The notes under the pieces are model-generated. The model was given only the letters and a program-made list of their open reading frames with translations. It was not told the DNA's origin and searched no databases. A DNA stretch of 64,000 nucleotides, taken from Escherichia coli. Its GTDB lineage: Bacteria; Pseudomonadota; Gammaproteobacteria; Enterobacterales; Enterobacteriaceae. Both the position numbers and the translations under genes were made by a program. This document shows, in pieces, positions 3,531 through 40,476 of the stretch (within the stretch, counting starts at the first letter, position 1; the number at the start of each line of letters is the position of its first letter). The DNA lies in the NCBI RefSeq assembly GCF_003334785.1, contig NZ_QOWV01000006.1; one strand, 5' to 3'.

Positions 3531-4295
3531 TCAGTTCAGGGCTTTCTTCAGATGTTCCGCCAGCTCGGCAATGGCCTCCGGCGAATCGTTATCGATAATG
3601 ATGTGCTTACGTTCTGTTTGCGGCGGTACGCGAATGCCGACCAGTTCAGCAAGTGGCGCGCTCTGGCTCCAGTCAATATCACTTGCCTGCCACTGATTTA
3701 CCGGTTTTTTACCCGCGCCGAGAATGGCTTTCATCGAAGGAATGCGTGGCACGTTAATATCGGAGGTGACGCAGAGCACGGCTGGAACAGAGAGTTCAAT
3801 AACTTCAACATCATCTTCAAGCGTGCGTTCAATCACCAGTGTATTGCCCTGACGCTGAATAGCACTCACTGCATTAATCACCGGAAGTTGCAGAATTTCT
3901 CCGACCAGCAAGCCAACCTGCTGGGCATAAAGGTCGCCGGAACCTTCACCAAAGATCAGTAAATCGAAGCCGATCTTTTCAATTGCTGCCGCCAGCGCTT
4001 TTGCGGTATCGAGAGGCAGTGCATGTTCAAGTTGCGCATCCTGCACCAAATACAGGCTGTGCGGCCCGCGGGATAGCACGTCTTTGCGCACTTTCGAGTT
4101 CTGCAACAATGAGCCGCCAACGGTCAGCGCGGCTATCTCATCGTCATCTGTTGCGAGCTGGCTTGCAGCTTCAATGGCATTGAGATCGAACTGGCTGATT
4201 TTGGCGTCGGCATTGTCGAAATTCAGGGTGTATTCTGGAGTGACAACAATGTCCTGTTCTTCAGGCACCAGCTTAAAGCAGGTTATTATTTTCAT
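3531..4295 (-). CDS. ydiQ: Electron transfer flavoprotein beta subunit (FixA-like)
   Basis: ORF track entry 3531..4394 trimmed to the internal ATG at 4295..4293 (MKIITCFKLV...), giving the 254-aa length I recall; the upstream extension is a GTG/TTG artefact. Confidence 0.85.
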   Translation of the reverse strand: MKIITCFKLVPEEQDIVVTPEYTLNFDNADAKISQFDLNAIEAASQLATDDDEIAALTVGGSLLQNSKVRKDVLSRGPHSLYLVQDAQLEHALPLDTAKALAAAIEKIGFDLLIFGEGSGDLYAQQVGLLVGEILQLPVINAVSAIQRQGNTLVIERTLEDDVEVIELSVPAVLCVTSDINVPRIPSMKAILGAGKKPVNQWQASDIDWSQSAPLAELVGIRVPPQTERKHIIIDNDSPEAIAELAEHLKKALN

Positions 4296-4610
4296 GATTT
4301 CTCCTGTGAGTCGCATACGGAACCATCTCCGATGGAAGGTAAAAATGGCCTGAAAATAGTGTGCGATAGCGGTGCGGGGTTTTCGACGGAGCAAGCTGTT
4401 TTCCTTGCCAACAATCTTGCAAAAAAAATGCGATCGCTAAAACAAAAGTGCAATTTGCGGCAATATAGTTATTCCATGACCGTACAATCTTGCATTCAGT
4501 GTAAATAATCTTGTTTAGCTCTCGCTAAACGCGGTTGTATAACCGCAATACACGCCGTATTTTATCCGGCATATATTGTTTTTGCTTGCTCATGGAATAG
4601 GGAGGTTGTC

Positions 4611-5522
4611 ATGTATCAACGCTGTTTTGATAACGCCAGTGAAACGCTGTTTGTCGCCGGTAAAACGCCACGGCTTTCACGTTTTGCATTTAGCGATGAT
4701 CCAAAATGGGAGTCCGGACATCACGTTCATGACAATGAAACCGAGTTGATTTACGTCAAGAAAGGGGTTGCAAGGTTTACCATCGATTCTTCGTTATATG
4801 TCGCACATGCGGATGACATTGTGGTGATAGAACGCGGCAGGCTGCATGCGGTGGCCTCTGACGTTAACGATCCGGCAACGACGTGTACCTGTGCGCTGTA
4901 CGGCTTTCAGTTTCAGGGGGCTGAGGAAAATCAGCTACTGCAACCGCATTCTTGTCCGGTAATTGCCGCGGGGCAGGGAAAAGAAGTCATAAAAACCTTA
5001 TTTAATGAGCTAAGTGTGATTTTGCCGCAAAGTAAAAATAGCCAAACATCTTCGTTATGGGATGCATTTGCCTATACGTTAGCCATTCTTTACTACGAAA
5101 ATTTTAAAAATGCTTATCGTTCGGAGCAGGGGTATATTAAAAAAGATGTTCTGATAAAAGATATTCTTTTCTATCTGAATAATAATTATCGCGAAAAAAT
5201 CACTTTAGAACAGTTATCGAAAAAATTTCGTGCCAGCGTCAGTTATATTTGCCATGAATTTACCAAAGAGTATCGTATTTCCCCTATTAACTATGTTATT
5301 CAACGGCGTATGACGGAAGCAAAATGGTCACTCACTAATACTGAATTATCACAGGCAGAGATCTCCTGGCGTGTGGGTTATGAAAATGTCGATCACTTTG
5401 CCAAACTGTTTTTGCGCCATGTCGGTTGTTCGCCCAGCGATTACCGTAGACAATTTAAAAACTGTTTTGCGGAACAAGAAATCCTATCTGAATTTCCTCA
5501 ACCGGTAAGTCTTGTTGGATAA
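4611..5522 (+). CDS. ydiP: AraC-family transcriptional regulator
   Basis: ORF track 303 aa; C-terminal AraC-type HTH region; divergent from ydiQRST with a 315-bp shared intergenic region. Confidence 0.9.
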   Translation: MYQRCFDNASETLFVAGKTPRLSRFAFSDDPKWESGHHVHDNETELIYVKKGVARFTIDSSLYVAHADDIVVIERGRLHAVASDVNDPATTCTCALYGFQFQGAEENQLLQPHSCPVIAAGQGKEVIKTLFNELSVILPQSKNSQTSSLWDAFAYTLAILYYENFKNAYRSEQGYIKKDVLIKDILFYLNNNYREKITLEQLSKKFRASVSYICHEFTKEYRISPINYVIQRRMTEAKWSLTNTELSQAEISWRVGYENVDHFAKLFLRHVGCSPSDYRRQFKNCFAEQEILSEFPQPVSLVG

Positions 5523-5564
5523 ATCTGGCGGCGCAGTTTGTTAAGAAGCTGCGCCGCCTGCAGA

Positions 5565-6716
5565 TTATTTGTTCTGATAGTCTTTCAGGATCTGCCGACC
5601 TGCTACGTAAATCATAATTTCGTCTGTACCGCCGCCGATACGTTCACAACGGACATCACGCCAGAAGCGGGAGACGCGCGCCTCATCGGTATAGCCCAGA
5701 CCGCCCATGATTTGAATCGCATCATCAATGACTTCCATTGCGGTACGTGCACAGTACAGTTTTGCCAGCGCCGCGCTGGTGCGCAGTGACTGATGCTGAT
5801 CGGCTTGCCATGCCACTTTCAGCACCATGTTGCGCATGTTGTCGATCTTAATCGCCATCAGCGCCAGTTTTTCCTGGATCATCTGGTTATGACCAATGGG
5901 CTTACCAAAAGCGATACGTTGGTTGGCATAGCGGGCGGCATCTTCAAAGGCGCATTCGGCAAAGCCGGTGCTGCGCGCGGCGTTGATCAGGCGCTCCATC
6001 TCAAAGTTGTACATCACATTGAGGAAACCCATTCCTTCTTCGCCCACCATGTCGCTCTCTTCAACCTCCACGTTGTCGAGATAGACTTCGCAGGTGCTGA
6101 GCATATGCCAGCCGATTTTATGCAGCGGGTTAATCTTAATGCCGGGCTTACTGGAGTCGACCCACCACAGGGTGAAGGCTTTTTTGGGATCTTTCGGTTG
6201 CGGATCGCGCGCCAGCACCAGCATATACGGGTACTCTTTCGCACCGGTAATAAAGGTTTTTTGTCCGTTGATGTAGACCTTGCCGTTTTTACGCGTGTAA
6301 GTGGTAGTGGCACTGTTGTTATCTGAGCCAGCACCTGGTTCCGTCAACGCCAGGGCATAGGCGGGATCACCCGTTTCCAGGGTGCTCTCTGCCGTTTTAC
6401 GTAGCTGCTCTGCAGAACCGAAACGGCGCATACTGTGAATACATTGACCGTTGGTAATTAAAAATGCCGGAGCACCGCATTTTGACACTTCCATCAGCGC
6501 CAGCATTTGGGTGACGTAATCCGCAGGGATACCACCAAATTCTTCCGGCACGCCAAGCATGGAAATACCGTTATCCGCCAGCGCCCGCATAAACTCACGC
6601 GGATATGTCCCGTTTTGATCGCAGGTGCGGAAATACTCTTCCGGAAAGTTAGTCGTAATCAGTTCGCGAATACTGGCCAGCAGCAGTTCTTGTTCTTCAG
6701 TTAAAGAAAAATCCAT
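5565..6716 (-). CDS. ydiO: Acyl-CoA dehydrogenase family protein
   Basis: ORF track 401 aa trimmed to the second of two adjacent ATGs (6716..6714) with AGGAG 7 nt upstream, giving 383 aa MDFSLTEEQ...; acyl-CoA dehydrogenase-like. Confidence 0.85.
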   Translation of the reverse strand: MDFSLTEEQELLLASIRELITTNFPEEYFRTCDQNGTYPREFMRALADNGISMLGVPEEFGGIPADYVTQMLALMEVSKCGAPAFLITNGQCIHSMRRFGSAEQLRKTAESTLETGDPAYALALTEPGAGSDNNSATTTYTRKNGKVYINGQKTFITGAKEYPYMLVLARDPQPKDPKKAFTLWWVDSSKPGIKINPLHKIGWHMLSTCEVYLDNVEVEESDMVGEEGMGFLNVMYNFEMERLINAARSTGFAECAFEDAARYANQRIAFGKPIGHNQMIQEKLALMAIKIDNMRNMVLKVAWQADQHQSLRTSAALAKLYCARTAMEVIDDAIQIMGGLGYTDEARVSRFWRDVRCERIGGGTDEIMIYVAGRQILKDYQNK

Positions 6717-6729
6717 CATTATACTCCTG

Positions 6730-8325
6730 TTAATGAGCCGCTTCAGGCAGGACAAAACCCATCGCCGCATCGATAAATAATCTTTCGTCCATCAGTTTGA
6801 GTTCTGGCGAAATCACTGGGGTGAAATCCATTTTGTCGAGAATATCTTTTTGTAAATCGACGCCAGGGGCGATTTCGATTAAATGCAGGCCGTCTTCTTT
6901 CAGCGTGAATACTGCGCGCTCAGTGATATAACGAACATCCAGCCCTCGCTCGAGAGCGATTTTTCCGCTGAAAGTAATTTCCGGTAGTTCCCGAATAAAT
7001 TTCTTCACCCGTCCTTCCTGGACGATATTTAATTTGCCGTCGGTAATTTCTGTTTTTAAACTGCCCGCAGTTAATGTGCCGCAGAAAATGATTTTCTTCG
7101 AAGTGGCACTGATATCAATAAATCCACCGGTGCCCATGATTTTACCATTGAATTTATGCACGCCGACGTTACCGTGCTGGTCGACTTCAGCAAAACTCAA
7201 ATAACAAACATCCAGACCGCCACCGTGATAAAAATCAAACTGGGACGTCATATCCAGAATGGCACGGGTATTCACGTTCGCGCCAAAGGCGATCCCCTGT
7301 GAAGTAATTCCGCCAATCGGACCTGTTTCTACCGTCAGAATAAAGTCATCAGCACAACCTTCTTCTCGGGCGACCAGGCCAATGCCGTCAGCAATACCGA
7401 CGCCGACATTCCCCACCGCGCCTTTACGCATTTCGAATAATGCGCGCCGCGCAACTAATTTACGTTGGTTTAGGGGCAGGCTAAGTTTGGTACTGTCATC
7501 AAGGGTGAAGTCACCAGAAATAAAGCGGTTAACCGGTGCACCGCCATACAGTTGGGTTTGATCCGGATCGACCACCACAATATCCACCAGATAACCCGGA
7601 ATACGGACAGATTTAGGATGCAGCGTGGCTTTCTTAACCATTTTCTGCACCTGCATCATCACAATACCGCCGTTATTGTGCACCGCCTGGGCAATAACCA
7701 ATGCGTCGAGATACATCACCTCATCTTCAAAAGTGGCGTAGCCTTCACTGTCGCAGGTGGTAGCGCGAATGAAGGCAATATCTGGCGCAATCGCTTTGTA
7801 ATAGAGATATTCTTTGTTATCAAACTCGACCAGTTTAATCAGGTCTTCTTTAGTGACTTCATTCAGTTTGCCGCCTTGCTGGCGTGGATCGACAAATGTC
7901 CCGATGCCAATATCACTAATAATACCAGGCTGGTGGGCTGCGGCGGCGCGTAAGGTTTGTGTAAGTACACCTTGTGGGTAGTTATAAGCAATAATTTTAT
8001 TTTGTTCTGCGAGTTCAGAAATACGCGGCGATTGTCCCCAGTGACCACATAATGCCCATTTCACCAGACCTTCTTGCGCCAGAGGACTAATACCACGGTC
8101 GGCGCGATCGCCAAGCCCTGTTGGACTAATAATCGATAAATTACGTGGTGTTTGAGTCTGTTTATATTTATCAGCAAGAGCAGTAATTAACGTGGTGGCT
8201 TCCAGAATACCGCCGCCAGCGCCTAACACACAAAGTGTTGCTTCGTCGGGAATATAATTCACCGCTTCCTGTGCCGACAGGACCGGCACTCGTCCATTAA
8301 TACGAGGTGGTTTTACAGGTTTCAT
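6730..8325 (-). CDS. ydiF: Short-chain acyl-CoA:acetate CoA-transferase, fused alpha/beta subunits
   Basis: ORF track 531 aa; stop 11 nt upstream of the ydiO start (tight operon). Confidence 0.9.
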   Translation of the reverse strand: MKPVKPPRINGRVPVLSAQEAVNYIPDEATLCVLGAGGGILEATTLITALADKYKQTQTPRNLSIISPTGLGDRADRGISPLAQEGLVKWALCGHWGQSPRISELAEQNKIIAYNYPQGVLTQTLRAAAAHQPGIISDIGIGTFVDPRQQGGKLNEVTKEDLIKLVEFDNKEYLYYKAIAPDIAFIRATTCDSEGYATFEDEVMYLDALVIAQAVHNNGGIVMMQVQKMVKKATLHPKSVRIPGYLVDIVVVDPDQTQLYGGAPVNRFISGDFTLDDSTKLSLPLNQRKLVARRALFEMRKGAVGNVGVGIADGIGLVAREEGCADDFILTVETGPIGGITSQGIAFGANVNTRAILDMTSQFDFYHGGGLDVCYLSFAEVDQHGNVGVHKFNGKIMGTGGFIDISATSKKIIFCGTLTAGSLKTEITDGKLNIVQEGRVKKFIRELPEITFSGKIALERGLDVRYITERAVFTLKEDGLHLIEIAPGVDLQKDILDKMDFTPVISPELKLMDERLFIDAAMGFVLPEAAH

Positions 8326-8467
8326 TGTTAATTCCTGATTCAGATGTGATTTTCCCTACGCCAAATGGAGAATTAGCGCACAGAGACTCACGAAATATTT
8401 TTATTAAATACGATTGAATATATTTTTTAGTTCGGCGGGGAGGGTGTTCCCGCCGAAATATTATTGC

Positions 8468-9226
8468 TTATGCCTGGTGTAAAATAGTTAATACCGTGCG
8501 CAAATCATTTACCGAGATTTGCCCTGGCGCAGACGCTTTTTTTACCGCACCAAAAGTTGCCGCCGAGCCAAATACTTCACCAGCCAGACGAGAAATTACG
8601 CCAGTTTTTGCCATCGACATCGTGATAATTGGACGATCGGCATACTGCTCCTGCATCTCCAGGGTCGCGGCAAGCAACGTCAGCACATCGCTGGTACTTT
8701 GCGGCATCAGCGCAATCTTAGGAATATCGGCGTCGAAGGATTGCATTTTGCGCAGACGGGCAATGATTTCTTCGGCTTCCGGCGTTTTATGGAAGTCATG
8801 GTTGGACATGACTACTTTCACATCATGCGCGTGGGCGTAGGCGACGGTTTCTTTAACCTGATCATCACCGGTAAATAACTCCAGATCGATCATATCAACC
8901 AGGCCGCTGTCGATGGCTGCACGATTGAGTGCAATATAAGCCTCGGTGGAAATCGCCTGCTCGCCGCCTTCTTTGGCACTGCGGAAGGTAAACAGCAGCG
9001 GTTTTTCTGGCATGGTCTCACGGAGAATTTTTGCTGCCGCCATGACAGACTCCACATTGGAGAGGTCGGCATAGTGGTCCACACGCCATTCCAGAATATC
9101 AAAGTCCGCTTCACGATAGGCGAGAGCTTCGGATTTCACGCTGGCGATATCTTTCGCCATCAGCGAGACGATGATTTTAGGTGCGCCCGTACCAATGACG
9201 AGATCTTTTACAGTTACGGTTTTCAT
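8468..9226 (-). CDS. aroD: 3-dehydroquinate dehydratase (type I)
   Basis: ORF track 252 aa; recognised AroD sequence and length. Confidence 0.92.
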
Positions 9227-9256
9227 TTTTTACCCTTTCTGCACGCGGTCAGCCTG

Positions 9257-10123
9257 TCAGGCACCGAACCCCATGACCTGTTTAACATATTCCAGAGGGA
9301 AATCTTTGCCAGTCCATAATGTGAACTGTTCAGCCCCTTGCCACAACAACATGCCGTATCCATCAATCGTTTTGCAACCAGCTTGTTGCGCCTGCTGCAA
9401 TAACTTCGTCATATGCGGGTTATACACGCATTCAGTGACCAGAAGTCCCGGATGTAACAGACTGATATCATTAACCAATGATTCATTCTCAAGGGGTTTC
9501 ATACCCACTTTTGTGCCATTGGTTAAAATGTCGGCGGAAGCCAGGGCTTCAGCAAAGGCTTGCTGATCGGCGAGATCGGTGACCGTGACGACACAATCGG
9601 TGTTTTCATTAACCCGCTGCGCGAAGGCGAGGGCTTTATCGAAGAACTCATCCCGACGGTTAAAGAGTTTAATTTCTTTTAAACCTTCAATTGCCCCCTG
9701 CGCGCCAATTGCCGTTGAGGCACCACCGGCCCCTAACAGCACCATCGTTTTGCCTTTGATATCAAAACCGCTCTCTTTAATGGCGCGAATATGGCCCGTG
9801 CCGTCGGTGTTATAGCCACGCAGATAGCCATCATCATTAACGATGGTGTTGATGGCCCCCACCAGTTTGGCAGCTGGTGTTAATTCATCAACATATTCAC
9901 ACGCCAGTTGTTTGTTCGGCATCGATACACCAGTTCCGCGCATTTTGAGGGCTTTTAATCCTTCAATTGCTCCAGGAAAGCTATCGTTATCCACTTCGAA
10001 GGCCATATAGGTAAATGGCAATCCCGCTTTTTCTAAGGCTTTATTCTGCATTTCGGGCGATAAACTGTGGCGGATAGGATAGGCCATCAACCCAATCAAT
10101 TCGTATTTTGCGGTAACATCCAT
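9257..10123 (-). CDS. ydiB: Quinate/shikimate dehydrogenase, NAD(P)-dependent
   Basis: ORF track 288 aa; shikimate dehydrogenase family; 30 nt upstream of aroD. Confidence 0.9.
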
Positions 10124-10134
10124 AATTAACTCCT

Positions 10135-11400
10135 TTAACCTCTATGCTTAATTGTGTTTAACCGGGTGCAAAATTTACGCTCGCCAAACCGCACATCATT
10201 TTCAGGAATAATGAAAACGCGGTAATAGCGGATAAAAACAATAATTGCGGTAATCAGGGCCAGCAGCGCGAAAGTAAAATCGAGAACAATGATATATTGC
10301 AGGCCGATGTTCGACAGATAACCGGTAATCAGTGGAATAACAAAGTTAGCCAGTCCACCCATCATCATATAAATACTGGTGACTTTGGCTTTGCTTTTGG
10401 GAAAAAACTCTGACATGACCGAAACGCCGAGCTGTAAAATGCCGCCAGCTGCTGAGAAACCGATAACAAAGGCTCCGGCATTGCACACCAGTGGAGAAGG
10501 GTACAGGTAGATAATGGCTGCTGTTATTGTTGCCAGTGCAGAGTTAAATACATTAGCCCAGATGGGCCGGACCATTTTTTTCAGTAGTGCGGCAAAAATA
10601 AAGACACAGACCAACGAGCCCATACTGTAATAAGAGATGGTTTTTAATGCCTCAGCTTCTGACATACCAGCAAAAGCCATCGCATATTTGGGCATCCACA
10701 CCACAATCACATAAAAGGTCGAGAATGCGGCTACACCGAACAGTACCGATGAAACACCTTCCAGCCAGACTAACGGTTTGCTGTTCATTTGCGGTAATTC
10801 ATTAGTTACGCTGGCGTCCACCAACTGGCTGGGGAATTTGCTTTTCAACAGCATCAGCGTGATCAGTACAAATAGAATACCCGGAATAATCAGCCCATAG
10901 CCGTACCAGATATTATTGAGCAACATATAGCTCACCAGCATTGGGTAGAACATTTGCCCAAATGACACCATCGCTTTAACCAGTATGACCGCCGAACCAG
11001 AGGCTTTCGGAAAGCATTCCATGAGCGCGGGGTAGCCACCCGTATCCAGCGCTGAGTTAGCGATACCTACGCACACTGCCAGACCGTAGGCGAGAGTTAA
11101 ATTCGGGCAAGCGGGAATACCAAAGAAGAATAGCAGATACATTATTACTGCCATTAATATCACCGCCCGACGACCAAACTTATCGGAGATCACACCGAAG
11201 AATAAAATACTGATCAATCGCCCCAAACCGATACCGGAAATTAAGTAGGCAATGCCCGCGTTGTCAGTGGAAAACTTTTCCGCCAGAGATGACATATTTT
11301 GGGCAAGCGTAATAACACTAATGCCGTGCAGGAAGTAGCTGAAGTAAATACAAAGAACAGCCAGGATAAATGGCGTGCTGAAAGCCTTATTTTGAGACAT
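10135..11400 (-). CDS. ydiN: MFS-family transporter
   Basis: ORF track 423 aa (GTG at 11406) trimmed to ATG 11400..11398 with AAGGAG 8 nt upstream; polytopic hydrophobic sequence. Confidence 0.85.
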
Positions 11401-11626
11401 TTTCACAGCTCCTTGCTGAAAGATAATTTCGTTACCGTACGTATTGTTCTCCGACGGTTTACATAATTACTATACTGAAGATGATTTTCCCTGGGTACAT
11501 GGCATAAAGTTTATGTTTCCAGGAATATTGCATGTCATAGTTTGTTTTTGATCGCGATTTTCCTTAGTTAGCGCAGAAAGAGTTATTTATCCGTAAGATC
11601 TTGCATGACCTGAAAAGAATATTGCA

Positions 11627-12841
11627 TTACCCACCCGGAGCGACATTTTCCTTTAGCGAGTGATGCCGCGTTTTTTTGCGGCTGCGTAAGCCGATAAACA
11701 GTGCCAGTAAAAAACCGATGGCAGCGATGGCGGTATCGAACCACATAATATCGGCAATACTTCTTTGGGACAGATGAGCCGTAATCAACGGAATAGTAAA
11801 GGTCGCAATACTGCCCGCACTGTAATAGATCCCTGTAGCTTTACCTTTAGCGTAAGGGAAACGTTCAGCCATTAACGTCAGGCCAATTTGCACAACACCT
11901 CCAGCAGAGGTAAAACCAATGACAAAAGCAAATATTATCACCACATAAAATGTGGGATGCAGGCAGACGGTAAACAGAGCAATAAATGAGATAAAGGTGT
12001 ACAGCATCAGTAATGTTGTTGGGCGAACGGTATTACGAATGAGTGGAGCGGTAATAAATACACAAAGCAGCGAACCCACGGTGTAGATACTGAGTAGTTT
12101 GATCGACATAGTGTATGACATGCCTGCAACAAATTGTCCGTACTGTGCCAGCCACTGGCTAACCAGATAAAACGTTGCCATTGAGATATAGCCATATAAG
12201 GTATAACTGGCTAAATCGATAATTGAACAGCGATGTTCCGTAGAGCTGGTGGTTTTCTTTATGACAGGTAAGCGACGACCCGGATGGGGTGGGAACGTAC
12301 AACGGTATAAAAACAGAGCGTTAATAAACATAATGCCTGCAGCAATCATAAAGGACCAACCGAACCACAGTTCAGCCCACACTAACAGGCTAATGATTAG
12401 CGGTAATAAAAATTGTCCGCTGGAAACAAATGCTTTAATTAAAATATTGGCTGTCCCAGGTGAGCGTGGAAAAGCTTCCATCAAACTGGGATAAGTGCCT
12501 GCATCGAGAAAACTGTTTGCCATTCCCGCCAGAAAGCCAAAAACATAAGCGATAATGATGTTATTGGTCTGCAGGATGCCAAAAAAGAAGGCCATATAGC
12601 AGCACATCCCGAGCATGATAAAAGGGCGGCGACCAAAGCGATCGGATAATAATCCTGCAAAAAGCAAGACACTTAATCGACCAATGCCCAGCGATGAGAT
12701 AACTATCGAGACACCCGCGGCATTAGTCTGCCAAAGTGTCTCCAGCGAGGCCATATTCAGGCTCATCAAAAGGACGCCCATACCATGCACCAGGTAATTA
12801 AAATACAACCCAAGTGCGGTAGGGAAATAGGGATTTTTCAT
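11627..12841 (-). CDS. ydiM: MFS-family transporter
   Basis: ORF track 404 aa; paralogous in sequence to ydiN. Confidence 0.88.
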   Translation of the reverse strand: MKNPYFPTALGLYFNYLVHGMGVLLMSLNMASLETLWQTNAAGVSIVISSLGIGRLSVLLFAGLLSDRFGRRPFIMLGMCCYMAFFFGILQTNNIIIAYVFGFLAGMANSFLDAGTYPSLMEAFPRSPGTANILIKAFVSSGQFLLPLIISLLVWAELWFGWSFMIAAGIMFINALFLYRCTFPPHPGRRLPVIKKTTSSTEHRCSIIDLASYTLYGYISMATFYLVSQWLAQYGQFVAGMSYTMSIKLLSIYTVGSLLCVFITAPLIRNTVRPTTLLMLYTFISFIALFTVCLHPTFYVVIIFAFVIGFTSAGGVVQIGLTLMAERFPYAKGKATGIYYSAGSIATFTIPLITAHLSQRSIADIMWFDTAIAAIGFLLALFIGLRSRKKTRHHSLKENVAPGG

Positions 12842-12940
12842 AGGTTCTACTTAGCAAAGGTGCTTTAAAAAGTGAAGCGATGTTGTGTCAGCATCCGTTC
12901 ATTATTGTTGTAACAACGACAATTCCTTTCTGTGGAAAAA

Positions 12941-13297
12941 TTAACAAAGCCGCTCCAGATCGTGTGCATATAATTCAGCAGCTACCGATTGATAGATCTT
13001 CCAGTCAATAAAATTGCCATCAGGGTAGACTCGTTGAAATGCGGTTAAGTCGGGGAAAAAACGCATGGTGTTGTTGCCGATGCGGTTATTTATTTTCTCT
13101 ATGATGGCATGAAGATGTTTTTTTCTTTGCTGACGCATAGCCAACAGTTGCTCGACTACACGATCAGGAATGGCACACTTGCCATTTTCCCACTGACGCC
13201 AGCTTTCACTGTCACCGGTCTGGGCAATCCAGGTCGCGCATTCATCAATAGTCATGGCAAAAATATGGCGGAGTGCCTGGAGTTCATAAGCGTTCAT
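12941..13297 (-). CDS. ydiL: Small DUF1870-type protein
   Basis: ORF track 127 aa starts at a TTG; trimmed to ATG 13297..13295 (MNAYELQALRH...), 118 aa as I recall for YdiL. Confidence 0.75.
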   Translation of the reverse strand: MNAYELQALRHIFAMTIDECATWIAQTGDSESWRQWENGKCAIPDRVVEQLLAMRQQRKKHLHAIIEKINNRIGNNTMRFFPDLTAFQRVYPDGNFIDWKIYQSVAAELYAHDLERLC

Positions 13298-13434
13298 CGT
13301 GTAATGGCTGCATGAAATAAACAATAAAATATAAATAACATTATCAGCCTGCTGACGGCTTGAAGAGAGTCACAGTATCTTGTGCAACATTATTGGAAAG
13401 AGTGAGGGGCGAGGTAGCGAAGCGGAAAAATGTT

Positions 13435-36906: not shown

Positions 36907-37212
36907 TCAGGCGAGTTTTGCCTGATTGATTTGACTAAGTGGCTCATTGACATCGAAAACTTTGGCGACAACTTCCTCAACGCCGAGATTTTTCAGTCGG
37001 GCAGTATGTTTTTCCAGATAGGCAAGGGCGCTTTTTTCATCAGTGAAAAGGTAGATCCCACCGGCTTCGTGGTTCTTTTCACTTTCTGTCCATACCTTCC
37101 ACAGAAAACCAGGTTCCTGATTAATCGACTCAGCAAGTGGTTTAAGCTGCTCAGCCATTGCGTCGCCAAATGGGCCATTAAAAGCAAAATGAAGTTGTAA
37201 CAAAGTTGCCAT
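36907..37212 (-). CDS. ydhR: Small protein, putative monooxygenase-like
   Basis: ORF track 101 aa. Confidence 0.85.
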
Positions 37213-37319
37213 AGCGATTCTCCTTCTGATAACGCATACGAAGACAGTGTAAATCTTTTAACGTATTGGATACAGAGAAGAAACAGAGGGAAAAAGGAGA
37301 AGACCAGATTAAGAAAATC

Positions 37320-37396
37320 TGGTGCGTCCGAGTGGACTCGAACCACCGACCCCCACCATGTCAAGGTGGTGCTCTAACCAACTGAGCTACGGACGC
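37320..37396 (-). tRNA. valW: tRNA-Val (anticodon GAC)
   Basis: Reverse complement GCGTCCGTAGCTCAGTTGGTTAGAGCACCACCTTGACATGGTGGGGGTCGGTGGTTCGAGTCCACTCGGACGCACCA; anticodon loop CTTGACA; encoded CCA. Confidence 0.95.
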
Positions 37397-37400
37397 AGGA

Positions 37401-37477
37401 TGGTGCGTTCAATTGGACTCGAACCAACGACCCCCACCATGTCAAGGTGGTGCTCTAACCAACTGAGCTATGAACGC
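37401..37477 (-). tRNA. valV: tRNA-Val (anticodon GAC)
   Basis: Reverse complement GCGTTCATAGCTCAGTTGGTTAGAGCACCACCTTGACATGGTGGGGGTCGTTGGTTCGAGTCCAATTGAACGCACCA; a near-duplicate of valW with compensatory acceptor/T-stem changes. Confidence 0.95.
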
Positions 37478-37503: not shown

Positions 37504-37532
37504 ATATTAGCGGCAGAGTGGGAAGGTGGCAA
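37504..37532 (-). promoter_or_regulatory. Candidate sigma70 promoter for valV-valW
   Basis: Minus strand -35 TTGCCA, 17-nt spacer, -10 TAATAT, then a GC-rich discriminator (CGTCCCC) typical of stable-RNA promoters, about 20 nt upstream of the tRNA 5' end. Confidence 0.55.
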
Positions 37533-37784
37533 GAGGCAAAACGTAATTTTCTGCGCTATTTCGACCGTTTGCAGAGCTTTTAAGCAAATTGGCTATATTT
37601 TGTTGATTTGCAAGGGTGATTTTTATTCAGGATCGCATTTACATCTGATACAACCCAATAATTCGTGTATCAGAGTTTAAACAGAGTTGTTTGCCACCAT
37701 CTCAAATCTGTCGTGGATAAATCCTCCGTAGCCTTTACACTTAGGTAGCAATAAAGGCACACAGATGCAGCAAAGGAATAAATC

Positions 37785-39041
37785 ATGGGATCTGATGCGA
37801 AAAACTTGATGAGCGACGGGAACGTGCAAATTGTTAAGACCGGCGAGGTCATTGGCGCGACGCAACTTACTGAAGGCGAGTTGATTGTTGAAGCTGGCGG
37901 AAGAGCCGAAAATACCGTGGTCACGGGGGCTGGCTGGTTGAAAGTGGCAACCGGTGGGATCGCCAAATGCACACAGTACGGTAACAATGGCACGCTATCG
38001 GTCAGCGATGGTGCCATTGCCACAGATATTGTTCAGTCCGAGGGAGGCGCAATTAGTCTCTCTACGCTCGCTACGGTTAATGGCCGCCATCCCGAAGGTG
38101 AATTCAGCGTTGATAAAGGTTATGCCTGCGGTTTGTTGCTGGAAAATGGCGGTAACCTGCGTGTACTGGAAGGACATCGCGCGGAAAAAATCATTCTCGA
38201 TCAAGAGGGCGGCCTGTTGGTTAATGGGACAACCTCAGCGGTCGTGGTAGATGAAGGTGGTGAATTGTTGGTGTATCCAGGTGGGGAAGCCAGCAATTGT
38301 GAGATTAATCAGGGCGGCGTTTTTATGCTGGCCGGGAAAGCCAGTGATACGTTGCTTGCTGGTGGCACCATGAATAATCTCGGTGGTGAAGACTCTGACA
38401 CTATTGTTGAGAATGGATCCATTTATCGTCTGGGGACGGATGGCCTTCAGCTCTACAGTTCCGGTAAGACGCAAAACCTGTCCGTGAATGTGGGTGGTCG
38501 GGCTGAAGTGCATGCCGGTACGCTGGAAAACGCGGTAATACAAGGTGGGACAGTGATCCTGTTGTCACCCACCAGCGCGGACGAAAATTTTGTCGTAGAG
38601 GAAGATCGCGCACCGGTTGAACTGACCGGGAGTGTTGCATTACTGGACGGCGCTTCAATGATTATTGGTTATGGCGCAGAGCTGCAACAATCAACGATTA
38701 CTGTACAGCAGGGCGGTGTGTTGATTCTAGACGGCAGTACGGTAAAAGGTGACGGTGTCACTTTCATTGTTGGTAACATCAATCTGAATGGTGGAAAACT
38801 GTGGCTGATCACTGATGCGGCAACGCATGTGCAACTGAAAGTGAAACGCCTGCGCGGAGAGGGAGCGATTTGCCTGCAAACCAGTGCAAAAGAAATTTCA
38901 CCTGACTTCATCAATGTGAAAGGGGAAGTTACCGGGGATATACACGTTGAGATAACAGATGCCAGTCGGCAAACTCTGTGTAACGCTCTGAAATTACAGC
39001 CAGACGAAGACGGGATTGGCGCAACGCTCCAGCCTGCGTAA
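37785..39041 (+). CDS. ydhQ: Autotransporter-passenger-like beta-helix repeat protein, no obvious signal peptide or beta-barrel
   Basis: ORF track 418 aa; recurring Gly-Gly-containing pseudo-repeats about every 20 residues. Confidence 0.85.
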   Translation: MGSDAKNLMSDGNVQIVKTGEVIGATQLTEGELIVEAGGRAENTVVTGAGWLKVATGGIAKCTQYGNNGTLSVSDGAIATDIVQSEGGAISLSTLATVNGRHPEGEFSVDKGYACGLLLENGGNLRVLEGHRAEKIILDQEGGLLVNGTTSAVVVDEGGELLVYPGGEASNCEINQGGVFMLAGKASDTLLAGGTMNNLGGEDSDTIVENGSIYRLGTDGLQLYSSGKTQNLSVNVGGRAEVHAGTLENAVIQGGTVILLSPTSADENFVVEEDRAPVELTGSVALLDGASMIIGYGAELQQSTITVQQGGVLILDGSTVKGDGVTFIVGNINLNGGKLWLITDAATHVQLKVKRLRGEGAICLQTSAKEISPDFINVKGEVTGDIHVEITDASRQTLCNALKLQPDEDGIGATLQPA

Positions 39042-39047
39042 AAATAC

Positions 39048-39073
39048 AGGCGCAACCCGTGAAGGTTGCGCCT
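39048..39073. terminator. Bidirectional terminator hairpin between convergent ydhQ and mdtK
   Basis: Inverted repeat AGGCGCAACC / GGTTGCGCCT with a 6-nt loop, inside the 40-bp gap between the two stops. Confidence 0.7.
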
Positions 39074-39081
39074 TGTCTTTA

Positions 39082-40476
<1,395 letters not shown>

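What the first reader, a model, noticed from the sequence alone, without database searches (positions are those of the whole stretch)
37785..39041. YdhQ: autotransporter-like repeat protein without export signals
Seen in sequence: the 418-aa product contains recurring Gly-Gly-centred pseudo-repeats (EAGGRAEN, TGGIAK, SEGGAIS, ENGGNLR, QEGGLLV, DEGGELLV, NQGGVFML, NVGGRAEV, IQGGTVIL, QQGGVLIL, LNGGKLWL) typical of adhesin-passenger beta-helices. The N-terminus (MGSDAKNLMSDGNVQ) is hydrophilic with no signal peptide, and the protein ends without a beta-barrel translocator domain. Inference: either a cytoplasmic beta-helix protein of unknown role or a decayed autotransporter remnant.
Basis: partly seen in the sequence, partly recalled or inferred. 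Interest (0 to 1): 0.4.

Follow-up and report, generated by a model that had tools for sequence, protein, structure and literature searches.

The report
YdhQ: orphan cytoplasmic autotransporter-passenger beta-helix
This is the known E. coli gene ydhQ: a piece of an adhesin "passenger" beta-helix with no export signal and no membrane anchor, which has nevertheless been kept intact by selection across the genus Escherichia, so it is a working, probably cytoplasmic, protein rather than a decaying remnant.

Summary
Window 37785-39041 (+) is a 418-aa ORF, all eleven quoted Gly-Gly peptides are present, and the repeat is real (Pfam AIDA E=2e-22; ~18-residue periodicity).

It is E. coli ydhQ (b1664): NCBIfam equivalog PRK09945 at 940 bits, annotated "AIDA repeat-containing protein".

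- **No export parts.** There is no signal peptide, an in-frame stop lies two codons upstream, and there is no beta-barrel. Only 40 nt and a shared terminator separate it from the convergent mdtK.
- **Truncated at both ends.** Full-length relatives (916-978 aa) show that YdhQ corresponds to the C-terminal part of a passenger. It ends inside the pertactin-like autochaperone domain.
- **Fold.** AlphaFold gives a confident beta-helix (pLDDT 90.7). The closest solved structures are Ag43 and TibA.
- **Not decaying.** It is intact in 5422 of 5426 complete E. coli genomes. It is syntenic and 418-419 aa in E. albertii, E. marmotae, E. ruysiae, E. whittamii and a deeper lineage. dN/dS is about 0.1 with dS saturated.
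- **Origin.** Salmonella and Enterobacter lack the ~1.5-kb segment.
- **Published data.** The native protein is detected, and fusions without a signal peptide are cytoplasmic.

Verdict: a known gene whose function is still unknown. Interest is low to moderate.

The parts
37785..39041 (+). ydhQ coding sequence (418 aa plus stop): 42.8 kDa, pI 4.4, net charge about -27
   Evidence: NCBIfam PRK09945 equivalog at 940.6 bits against a cut-off of 830; RefSeq annotation 'ydhQ: AIDA repeat-containing protein'
37773..37781 (+). Shine-Dalgarno AAGGA (37773-37777) and in-frame TAA stop (37779-37781) just upstream of the ATG, which rules out an N-terminal extension
   Evidence: The block is nucleotide-invariant across Escherichia lineages
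37809..38417 (+). AIDA-type ~19-residue strand-loop-strand repeats (aa 9-211), forming beta-helix rungs
   Evidence: Pfam PF16168, best copy aa 99-159 at E=2.2e-22 with further copies; TIGR04415; periodicity; the AF2 model is all-beta
38769..38993 (+). N-terminal two thirds of a pertactin-like (autochaperone) domain (aa 329-403, model positions 1-78 of 121). The protein ends 15 residues later with a conserved, structured tail
   Evidence: Full-length relatives carry the complete domain (model 2-120) followed by the PF03797 barrel. The tail is conserved and predicted as strands with pLDDT about 87
39048..39073 (.). Bidirectional intrinsic-terminator hairpin shared by ydhQ and the convergent mdtK
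37553..39047 (+). Roughly 1.5-kb segment (ydhQ plus its 5' region) present in Escherichia and the deeper L016 lineage. It lies between the valV-valW promoter and the mdtK terminator and is absent from Salmonella and Enterobacter
   Evidence: blastn homology to Salmonella and Enterobacter stops at window 37552, and tblastn finds no YdhQ remnant in either; contexts
37320..37477 (-). Flank: two divergently oriented tRNA-Val(GAC) genes (valV/valW)
39082..40455 (-). Flank: mdtK (MATE efflux pump), convergent with ydhQ. No secretion partner gene is adjacent

Best explanation
ydhQ encodes a stand-alone, soluble, very acidic right-handed beta-helix. It descends from the C-terminal part of the passenger of an AIDA-I/Ag43/YpjA-type (type Va) autotransporter. 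Compared with that architecture it lacks the signal peptide and N-terminal passenger (roughly 140-200 residues). It also lacks the last part of the autochaperone domain, the linker and the whole 12-strand beta-barrel (roughly 370 residues). The ~1.5-kb gene segment sits between the mdtK terminator and the valV-valW promoter. That arrangement dates from before the radiation of the genus Escherichia, and the gene has since been kept under purifying selection. With neither export element, the protein stays in the cytoplasm.

Shown: the anatomy, the fold, the truncation points, the age, the selection, native expression, and the cytoplasmic location of fusions.

Inferred: it acts inside the cell as a beta-solenoid binding scaffold and not as a surface adhesin. 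The only hints at a partner are weak. It was recovered in the UV-crosslinked RNA-bound proteome, it co-purified with EF-Tu, and its mRNA was proposed as a CsrA target.
For: Identity: PRK09945 equivalog at 940 bits and the RefSeq name.

No export parts: there is no hydrophobic N-terminal region and a stop lies two codons upstream. No PF03797 hit appears even at E<=10. Only 40 nt and a terminator precede mdtK.

Fold: AF2 pLDDT 90.7, pTM 0.88, all beta. Foldseek's best solved structures are Ag43 (7koh, 7ko9, 4kh3), TibA and pertactin. In AFDB, YpjA/EhaD and Ag43 follow YdhQ itself. PDB sequence hits to Ag43 reach E=1e-25.

Truncation: the collinear alignment reaches into the pertactin domain. Relatives P0174 and P0154 have a full pertactin domain plus the autotransporter beta-domain and clear signal-peptide h-regions.

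Selection and age: dN/dS is 0.06-0.14, against 0.012-0.02 for mdtK, 0.07-0.10 for ydhS and mostly 0.06-0.07 for ydhR (0.17 in the closest pair). Orthologs of 418-419 aa are syntenic in at least 5 Escherichia species. A deeper lineage, whose mdtK is only 82-83% identical at nucleotide level, also has it. It is intact in 5422 of 5426 E. coli genomes. No version longer than 419 aa exists at 71% identity or above.

Absence elsewhere: not found in Salmonella or Enterobacter.

Expression and location: native YdhQ was quantified by label-free proteomics (PMC6561319). It is listed among OOPS RNA-bound proteins (bioRxiv 10.1101/2023.07.03.547468). SignalP 6 is negative, and fusions without a signal peptide are cytosolic and functional (PMC13101318). 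It co-purified with EF-Tu (PMC2672614).

Cysteines: YdhQ orthologs have 3-6 Cys, two of them invariant, against 0-2 in the aligned passenger segments of close relatives.
Against: No intracellular function or partner has been demonstrated. EF-Tu co-purification and OOPS recovery are both prone to false positives, and a protein of pI 4.4 is an odd RNA binder. The Keio deletion mutant is used as a neutral control strain with no known T7 phenotype (PMC6962156 and the GMT preprint). PMC9110714 cites earlier work for a role in early adhesion, and PMC13101318 reports surface display when a foreign signal peptide is added. YDHQ appears in the COG3468 gene list of a review's table of protein clusters common in vesicle proteomes. 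dN/dS of about 0.1 is 5-10 times higher than for mdtK. The cysteine enrichment is only about twofold against all distant hits (0.55%).
Confidence: 0.68

Rival explanations
1. YdhQ still works outside the cell as an adhesin-like factor. It would be released by a non-classical route (lysis, vesicles, or an unknown transporter). It would then contribute to early adhesion or aggregation, for example by docking onto Ag43/YpjA-type beta-helices on neighbouring cells.
For: The fold and sequence match self-associating autotransporter passengers. PMC9110714 cites earlier work for a role in early adhesion. YDHQ appears in the COG3468 gene list of a table of protein clusters common in vesicle proteomes. 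PMC13101318 reports reporter activity at the surface when an exogenous signal peptide is fused.
Against: There is no signal peptide, no barrel, no TPS domain and no adjacent transporter gene. Without an added signal peptide the fusion protein is cytosolic and agarase is inactive. The surface-display claim rests on plate assays and a membrane-permeant fluorogen and does not explain outer-membrane passage without a barrel. YdhQ has five cysteines, which is unusual for a type V passenger among its close relatives. I could not read the primary adhesion paper (Roux et al. 2005).
Confidence: 0.12
2. YdhQ is a functionless relic of a broken autotransporter gene that happens to be transcribed and translated. 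The apparent constraint would reflect only selection against toxic misfolded variants.
For: It is truncated at both ends relative to every full-length relative. The deletion has no known phenotype and is used as a neutral control. Its dN/dS is higher than that of the housekeeping neighbour mdtK. Rare IS-disrupted alleles are tolerated, for example ISEcp1 in strain AR_0013.
Against: The ORF has stayed open with the same start and stop, and with a single 1-codon indel, across lineages whose synonymous sites are saturated (dS 0.4 to >1.5). By inference, neutral drift at dS about 1 would introduce tens of stop codons into 1257 nt. It is intact in 99.9% of complete E. coli genomes. The disordered N-terminal peptide and the new C-terminal tail are both conserved.
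Confidence: 0.1
3. YdhQ is a cytoplasmic substrate or decoy for autotransporter heptosyltransferases (Aah/TibC/BAHT family). These enzymes modify AIDA-type repeats in the cytoplasm in strains that carry them.
For: YdhQ matches TIGR04415 'O_hepto_targRPT' above its cut-off (43.2 against 30 bits). It resembles the hyper-glycosylated TibA fragment 4q1q. From general knowledge, heptosylation of AIDA-I and TibA takes place in the cytoplasm.
Against: ydhQ is a core gene in essentially all E. coli, whereas, from my own knowledge and untested here, these glycosyltransferases are accessory and absent from K-12. No such gene is adjacent. There is no experimental hint.
Confidence: 0.05

Closest known systems
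Antigen 43 (Flu) / AIDA-I / TibA self-associating autotransporters (type Va secretion)
   Same: YdhQ shares the AIDA-type 19-residue strand-loop-strand repeats and the right-handed beta-helix. These are the best solved-structure matches by sequence (E=1e-25 to 1e-13) and by fold (E=4e-11 to 2e-7). NCBIfam auto_Ag43 and auto_AIDA-I give partial hits.
   Different: YdhQ has no (extended) signal peptide, no alpha-helical linker and no beta-barrel. It covers only about 400 residues of passenger and stops inside the autochaperone domain. Its scores lie far below the family cut-offs (88 and 54 bits against 1200). Identity is only about 32%.
YpjA/EhaD and YcgV-type E. coli autotransporters
   Same: These are the closest collinear full-length relatives through the C-terminal passenger. 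A YpjA-like segment is 34% identical and a second E. coli-type segment, which I only guess is YcgV/YcgH-like (not checked), is 32% identical. YpjA (P52143) is among the top AFDB fold hits. They share the motif G-x-H-x-G-x-F-S-V-x-x-G-x-A-x-x-L-L-L-E-N-G-G-x-L-x-V-L, which is the most constrained block of YdhQ (codons 71-140, omega 0.02).
   Different: They are 955-1526 aa with a signal peptide, a full pertactin domain and a barrel. YdhQ is too diverged to be a recent truncation of any of them.
Interrupted autotransporter pseudogenes of E. coli K-12 (such as yaiT, ycgH, ydbA; from my own knowledge, not examined here)
   Same: Both are autotransporter-derived reading frames lacking parts of the canonical architecture.
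   Different: By annotation, those are strain-specific disruptions by IS elements or frameshifts. ydhQ is one intact frame, conserved genus-wide under purifying selection.

Membership tests
Classical (type Va) autotransporter | N-terminal Sec signal peptide | tested here: not met
   The N-terminus is hydrophilic: the best 10-aa Kyte-Doolittle window scores 1.19, against 2.3-2.9 in true relatives. An in-frame stop lies two codons upstream. SignalP 6.0 is negative in PMC13101318.
Classical (type Va) autotransporter | C-terminal 12-strand beta-barrel translocator (Pfam PF03797) | tested here: not met
   There is no PF03797 hit even at E<=10. The AF2 model is beta-helix to the last residue. Only 40 nt precede mdtK. 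Relatives P0174 and P0154 do have the barrel.
Classical (type Va) autotransporter | Beta-helical passenger built of AIDA-type repeats | tested here: met
   PF16168 at E=2.2e-22; TIGR04415 above its cut-off; AF2 and Foldseek match Ag43 and TibA.
Classical (type Va) autotransporter | Complete pertactin-like autochaperone/junction domain | tested here: inconclusive
   Only model positions 1-78 of 121 are matched (E=2.5e-5). The rest is replaced by a conserved 15-residue tail.
YdhQ orthologous family (NCBIfam NF007409 / PRK09945) | Full-length match above the curated cut-off | tested here: met
   940.6 bits against a cut-off of 830, residues 1-418 on profile positions 1-418.
Self-associating autotransporters (SAAT: Ag43, AIDA-I, TibA) | Surface-exposed passenger that mediates cell-cell aggregation | not testable with these tools
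   Only sequence and fold resemblance could be tested. Surface exposure is unlikely without export elements.
Two-partner secretion exoprotein (TpsA) | N-terminal TPS domain and an adjacent TpsB transporter gene | tested here: not met
   No such Pfam hit. The neighbours are tRNA-Val and mdtK.
Pseudogene / decaying remnant | Disrupted frame or neutral evolution (dN/dS about 1), with patchy retention | tested here: not met
   dN/dS is 0.06-0.14 with saturated dS. The frame is the same in all orthologs. It is intact in 5422 of 5426 genomes.

The most novel reading that the evidence does not exclude
YdhQ is a domesticated adhesin fragment: a secreted beta-helix module exapted about a genus-age ago into a cytoplasmic protein with an RNA- or translation-associated role, possibly under CsrA control. 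Three things point that way. It was recovered in the UV-crosslinked RNA-bound proteome. It co-purified with EF-Tu. Its translation-initiation region, rich in GGA motifs, is invariant at nucleotide level across lineages whose synonymous sites are otherwise saturated.
Probability: 0.15. Interest if true: 0.55.

Novelty: already known. Interest (0 to 1): 0.27.

Why it matters
ydhQ is a named, annotated K-12 gene of unknown function. The literature (PMC13101318) already notes its lack of a signal peptide but still files it as an autotransporter or adhesin, without addressing the missing barrel. This analysis adds three things:

- **Architecture.** YdhQ fails both defining export features of the family. 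It ends inside the autochaperone domain.
- **Stability.** This truncated architecture is old and held by purifying selection, so it is neither an adhesin in the usual sense nor junk.
- **Origin.** The gene is a genus-specific insertion next to the valV tRNA hotspot.

These points matter for three groups of users:

- People who count ydhQ as an adhesin or biofilm gene in genomic surveys.
- People who use the deletion strain as a "neutral" control.
- People who use YdhQ as a surface-display "anchor".

It would also be a clean case for studying how a secreted beta-solenoid can be reused inside the cell.

Tried and rejected
- **GG count.** Counting GG dipeptides against shuffles gave 14 against 9.7 +/- 2.6 (p about 0.075), which is not significant alone. 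I relied instead on profile matches and periodicity.
- **Upstream and downstream frames.** I looked for an N-terminal extension or frameshifted leader in all three upstream frames, and for a translocator in the downstream frames. Only stops and the antisense of mdtK were found.
- **Genome scan.** The genome-contig scan used two narrow peptide patterns and returned only 5 Escherichia loci. It cannot prove absence elsewhere, and it did not settle E. fergusonii. I therefore examined the mdtK-valV locus of Salmonella and Enterobacter directly.
- **Shorter relatives.** Hits of 378-657 aa (P0069, P0107, P0110, P0118, P0127, P0128) looked like other stand-alone versions. They read as fragments or frameshifted pieces of Ag43/YpjA-like genes, so I did not use them as evidence.
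- **Cysteine enrichment.** As a mark of cytoplasmic adaptation it is only suggestive: 0.7-1.4% against 0.55% in all distant hits, and 0-2 Cys in close aligned segments.
- **Acidity as a nucleic-acid-mimic hint.** Rejected, because the aligned passenger segments are about as acidic.
- **Defence and phage libraries.** PADLOC gave no hit. PHROGs gave only unannotated families that match the repeat region.
- **Literature.** Roux et al. 2005, the source of the adhesion claim, is not held. The 'b1664' search returned nothing relevant.
- **Promoter.** No consensus sigma-70 promoter for ydhQ was found by the simple scan.

Full report
**1. Observation**

Window 37785-39041 (+) is an ATG-initiated ORF of 418 codons plus a stop.

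- The N-terminus, MGSDAKNLMSDGNVQ, is hydrophilic. The most hydrophobic 10-residue window in the first 70 residues scores 1.19 on the Kyte-Doolittle scale. The signal-peptide h-regions of proteobacterial relatives score 2.3-2.9.
- An in-frame TAA lies at 37779-37781, two codons before the ATG. It is preceded by an AAGGA Shine-Dalgarno sequence. The protein therefore cannot start further upstream.
- Forty nucleotides after the stop codon lies the stop of the convergent mdtK gene. A bidirectional terminator hairpin occupies 39048-39073 in between. There is no room for a translocator domain.
- The GG count alone is not significant (p about 0.075).
- The repeat is established by three other results. 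Pfam AIDA matches at E=2.2e-22 with further copies. TIGR04415 scores above its cut-off. Self-similarity has an ~18-residue periodicity (lags 17-19, 36, 54; z about 4).

**2. Identity**

The protein matches the NCBIfam equivalog PRK09945 over its full length, at 940.6 bits against a cut-off of 830. The DNA is 99.9-100% identical to E. coli chromosomes, where the gene is annotated "ydhQ: AIDA repeat-containing protein". It lies between two tRNA-Val genes and mdtK. This is the known K-12 gene ydhQ.

**3. Anatomy compared with full-length relatives**

Pfam finds AIDA repeats in residues about 9-211. It also finds the first 78 of 121 positions of the pertactin domain in residues 329-403. It finds no autotransporter beta-domain.

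An exhaustive search of 1.84 billion representative proteins found no orthologous cluster other than YdhQ's own. Every other substantial hit is a large repeat protein at 38% identity or less. Two collinear relatives, P0174 (916 aa) and P0154 (978 aa), show the ancestral architecture:

| Feature | P0174 | P0154 |
|---|---|---|
| Signal-peptide h-region | present | present |
| Pertactin domain (model 2-120) | 456-575 | 519-634 |
| PF03797 barrel | 658-896 | 717-956 |

YdhQ residues 154-400 align to the stretch just before and into their pertactin domains. YdhQ therefore corresponds to the last ~400 residues of a passenger. Relative to these relatives it lacks two parts:
- about 140-200 N-terminal residues, including the signal peptide;
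- about 370 C-terminal residues, comprising the end of the autochaperone domain, the linker and the barrel.

AlphaFold2 gives a confident all-beta model (pLDDT 90.7, pTM 0.88). Only residues 1-12 and 266-273 are disordered. The best solved-structure matches are Ag43, TibA and pertactin. In AFDB, YdhQ orthologs are followed by YpjA/EhaD and Ag43. Identity to the closest collinear segments is 25-34%, so YdhQ is not a recent truncation of any extant paralog.

**4. Is it decaying?**

No.

- The 1.9-kb query spanning tRNA-Val, ydhQ and the end of mdtK is at least 80% covered in 5422 of 5426 complete E. coli genomes. One exception that I examined carries an ISEcp1 insertion.
- Orthologs of exactly 418 aa sit at the same site in E. 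albertii, E. marmotae, E. ruysiae, E. whittamii and unnamed Escherichia species.
- A 419-aa ortholog at 71% identity occurs at the same site in a deeper lineage. Its mdtK is only 82-83% identical at nucleotide level to Escherichia species. Those species are 87-89% identical to each other, and all are 79-81% identical to Salmonella and Enterobacter.
- Nei-Gojobori dN/dS for ydhQ is 0.06-0.14, with dS from 0.41 to above 1.5. That is comparable to ydhS (0.07-0.10) and mostly to ydhR (0.06-0.07; 0.17 in the closest pair). It is higher than mdtK (0.012-0.02).
- Constraint is strongest in codons 71-140 (omega 0.02). That block holds the family motif ...VNGRHPEGEFSVDKGYACGLLLENGGNLRVLEGH....
- The disordered N-terminal peptide and the new C-terminal tail are both conserved.
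- By inference, neutral drift at dS about 1 would have introduced tens of stop codons.

**5. Origin**

In Salmonella and Enterobacter, the mdtK stop is followed by about 150 bp and then the two tRNA-Val genes. Homology to the window ends at 37552, and tblastn finds no YdhQ remnant. The ~1.5-kb segment 37553-39047 was thus found only in Escherichia and the deeper L016 lineage among the lineages examined. Its GC content (51.5%) and codon usage are host-like, which is consistent with an old acquisition.

The valV locus is a known kind of hotspot. On the 3' side of the tRNAs, Salmonella carries type III secretion genes, which I recognise as SPI-2 from general knowledge. Enterobacter carries type VI secretion genes there. 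ydhQ lies on the other side of the tRNAs.

**6. Published evidence**

- PMC13101318 (2026) reports that SignalP 6.0 predicts no signal peptide. A YdhQ fusion without a signal peptide is cytosolic and functional, and agarase fused to YdhQ alone is inactive. The paper also claims surface display when a foreign signal peptide is added. It calls YdhQ a "leaderless autotransporter" but does not address the missing barrel. I treat the display claim as unexplained rather than as evidence for translocator function.
- Native YdhQ was quantified by label-free proteomics, falling 5.5-fold with vanillin (PMC6561319).
- It is among 17 unannotated proteins recovered by OOPS RNA-interactome capture.
- It co-purified with EF-Tu.
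- Its mRNA was proposed as a direct CsrA target.
- A FlhDC SELEX site lies in the ydhQ-valV spacer.
- The Keio deletion strain serves as a neutral control in phage work.
- PMC9110714 lists ydhQ as a biofilm/adhesin gene under positive selection and cites earlier work for early adhesion. I could not read that primary paper.

**7. Explanation and rivals**

- **Best explanation (0.68).** YdhQ is an orphaned passenger fragment kept as a cytoplasmic beta-solenoid, with an intracellular binding role that is not yet defined.
- **Extracellular adhesin-like role via non-classical release (0.12).** This fits the fold and the secondary literature but not the anatomy or the fusion data.
- **Functionless relic (0.10).** This fits the lack of a phenotype but not the selection data.
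- **Substrate or decoy for autotransporter heptosyltransferases (0.05).** This is speculative.

**8. Classification**

YdhQ works and looks like an autotransporter passenger module. It fails both defining export features of a type Va autotransporter, so it should not be filed as one. It is a full member of its own orthologous family (PRK09945).

The gene, its odd architecture and the missing signal peptide are already on record, so the finding is "already known". The evidence for selection, for the age of the truncation and for the insertion site is a modest addition. Interest: 0.27.

Noticed in passing
window 37196-37358 (+): Rfam RF02194 'HPnc0260 bacterial antisense RNA' matches at 112 bits (gathering score 59, E=1.4e-15). 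The match lies antisense to the 5' end of ydhR and to part of the adjacent tRNA-Val gene. It may reflect the tRNA-flanking sequence rather than a real antisense RNA.
   Followed up: no
window ~37735-37830: The ydhQ translation-initiation region is almost invariant at nucleotide level, synonymous positions included, across Escherichia species and the deep lineage L016, although dS elsewhere in the gene is saturated. The region covers TAGCCTTTACACTTAGG...GCAAAGGAATAAATCATGGGATCTGATG... and codons 1-12. It contains several GGA motifs, and PMC5389547 names ydhQ as a CsrA target. This suggests an RNA-level regulatory constraint.
   Followed up: partly
window 37553-37620: A spacer block upstream of the valV-valW promoter is invariant within Escherichia but has no counterpart in Salmonella or Enterobacter. 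The published FlhDC gSELEX site (PMC9962212) lies just beside it and partly overlaps it, at about 37527-37569. The block could hold the ydhQ promoter.
   Followed up: partly
L013 (Salmonella) 7835-13362; L014 (Enterobacter) 9791-13374: The 3' side of the same tRNA-Val pair carries type III secretion genes in Salmonella (SPI-2-like: Bac_export, FliP, SsaO/P, ATPase). It carries type VI secretion genes in Enterobacter. In Escherichia the ydhR/ydhS genes lie there. The locus is a classic tRNA-linked variable region.
   Followed up: partly
L016 / L017 / L003 (Logan runs SRR26188688, SRR26188687, SRR31578456): An unnamed lineage has mdtK 82-83% identical at nucleotide level to Escherichia species, outside the 87-89% range seen among the named species. 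It carries a 419-aa ydhQ (71% identity) at the same site. It may be an undescribed deep Escherichia-like species.
   Followed up: partly
L018 (E. coli AR_0013, NZ_CP032204.1) 4486-7403: ydhQ is split by an ISEcp1 (IS1380-family) transposase insertion. This is one of only four complete E. coli genomes without an at least 80% contiguous match.
   Followed up: yes
L001 (E. albertii) 4251-5432: In this E. albertii contig ydhS is absent, so ydhT lies directly next to ydhR. The other Escherichia loci keep ydhS.
   Followed up: no
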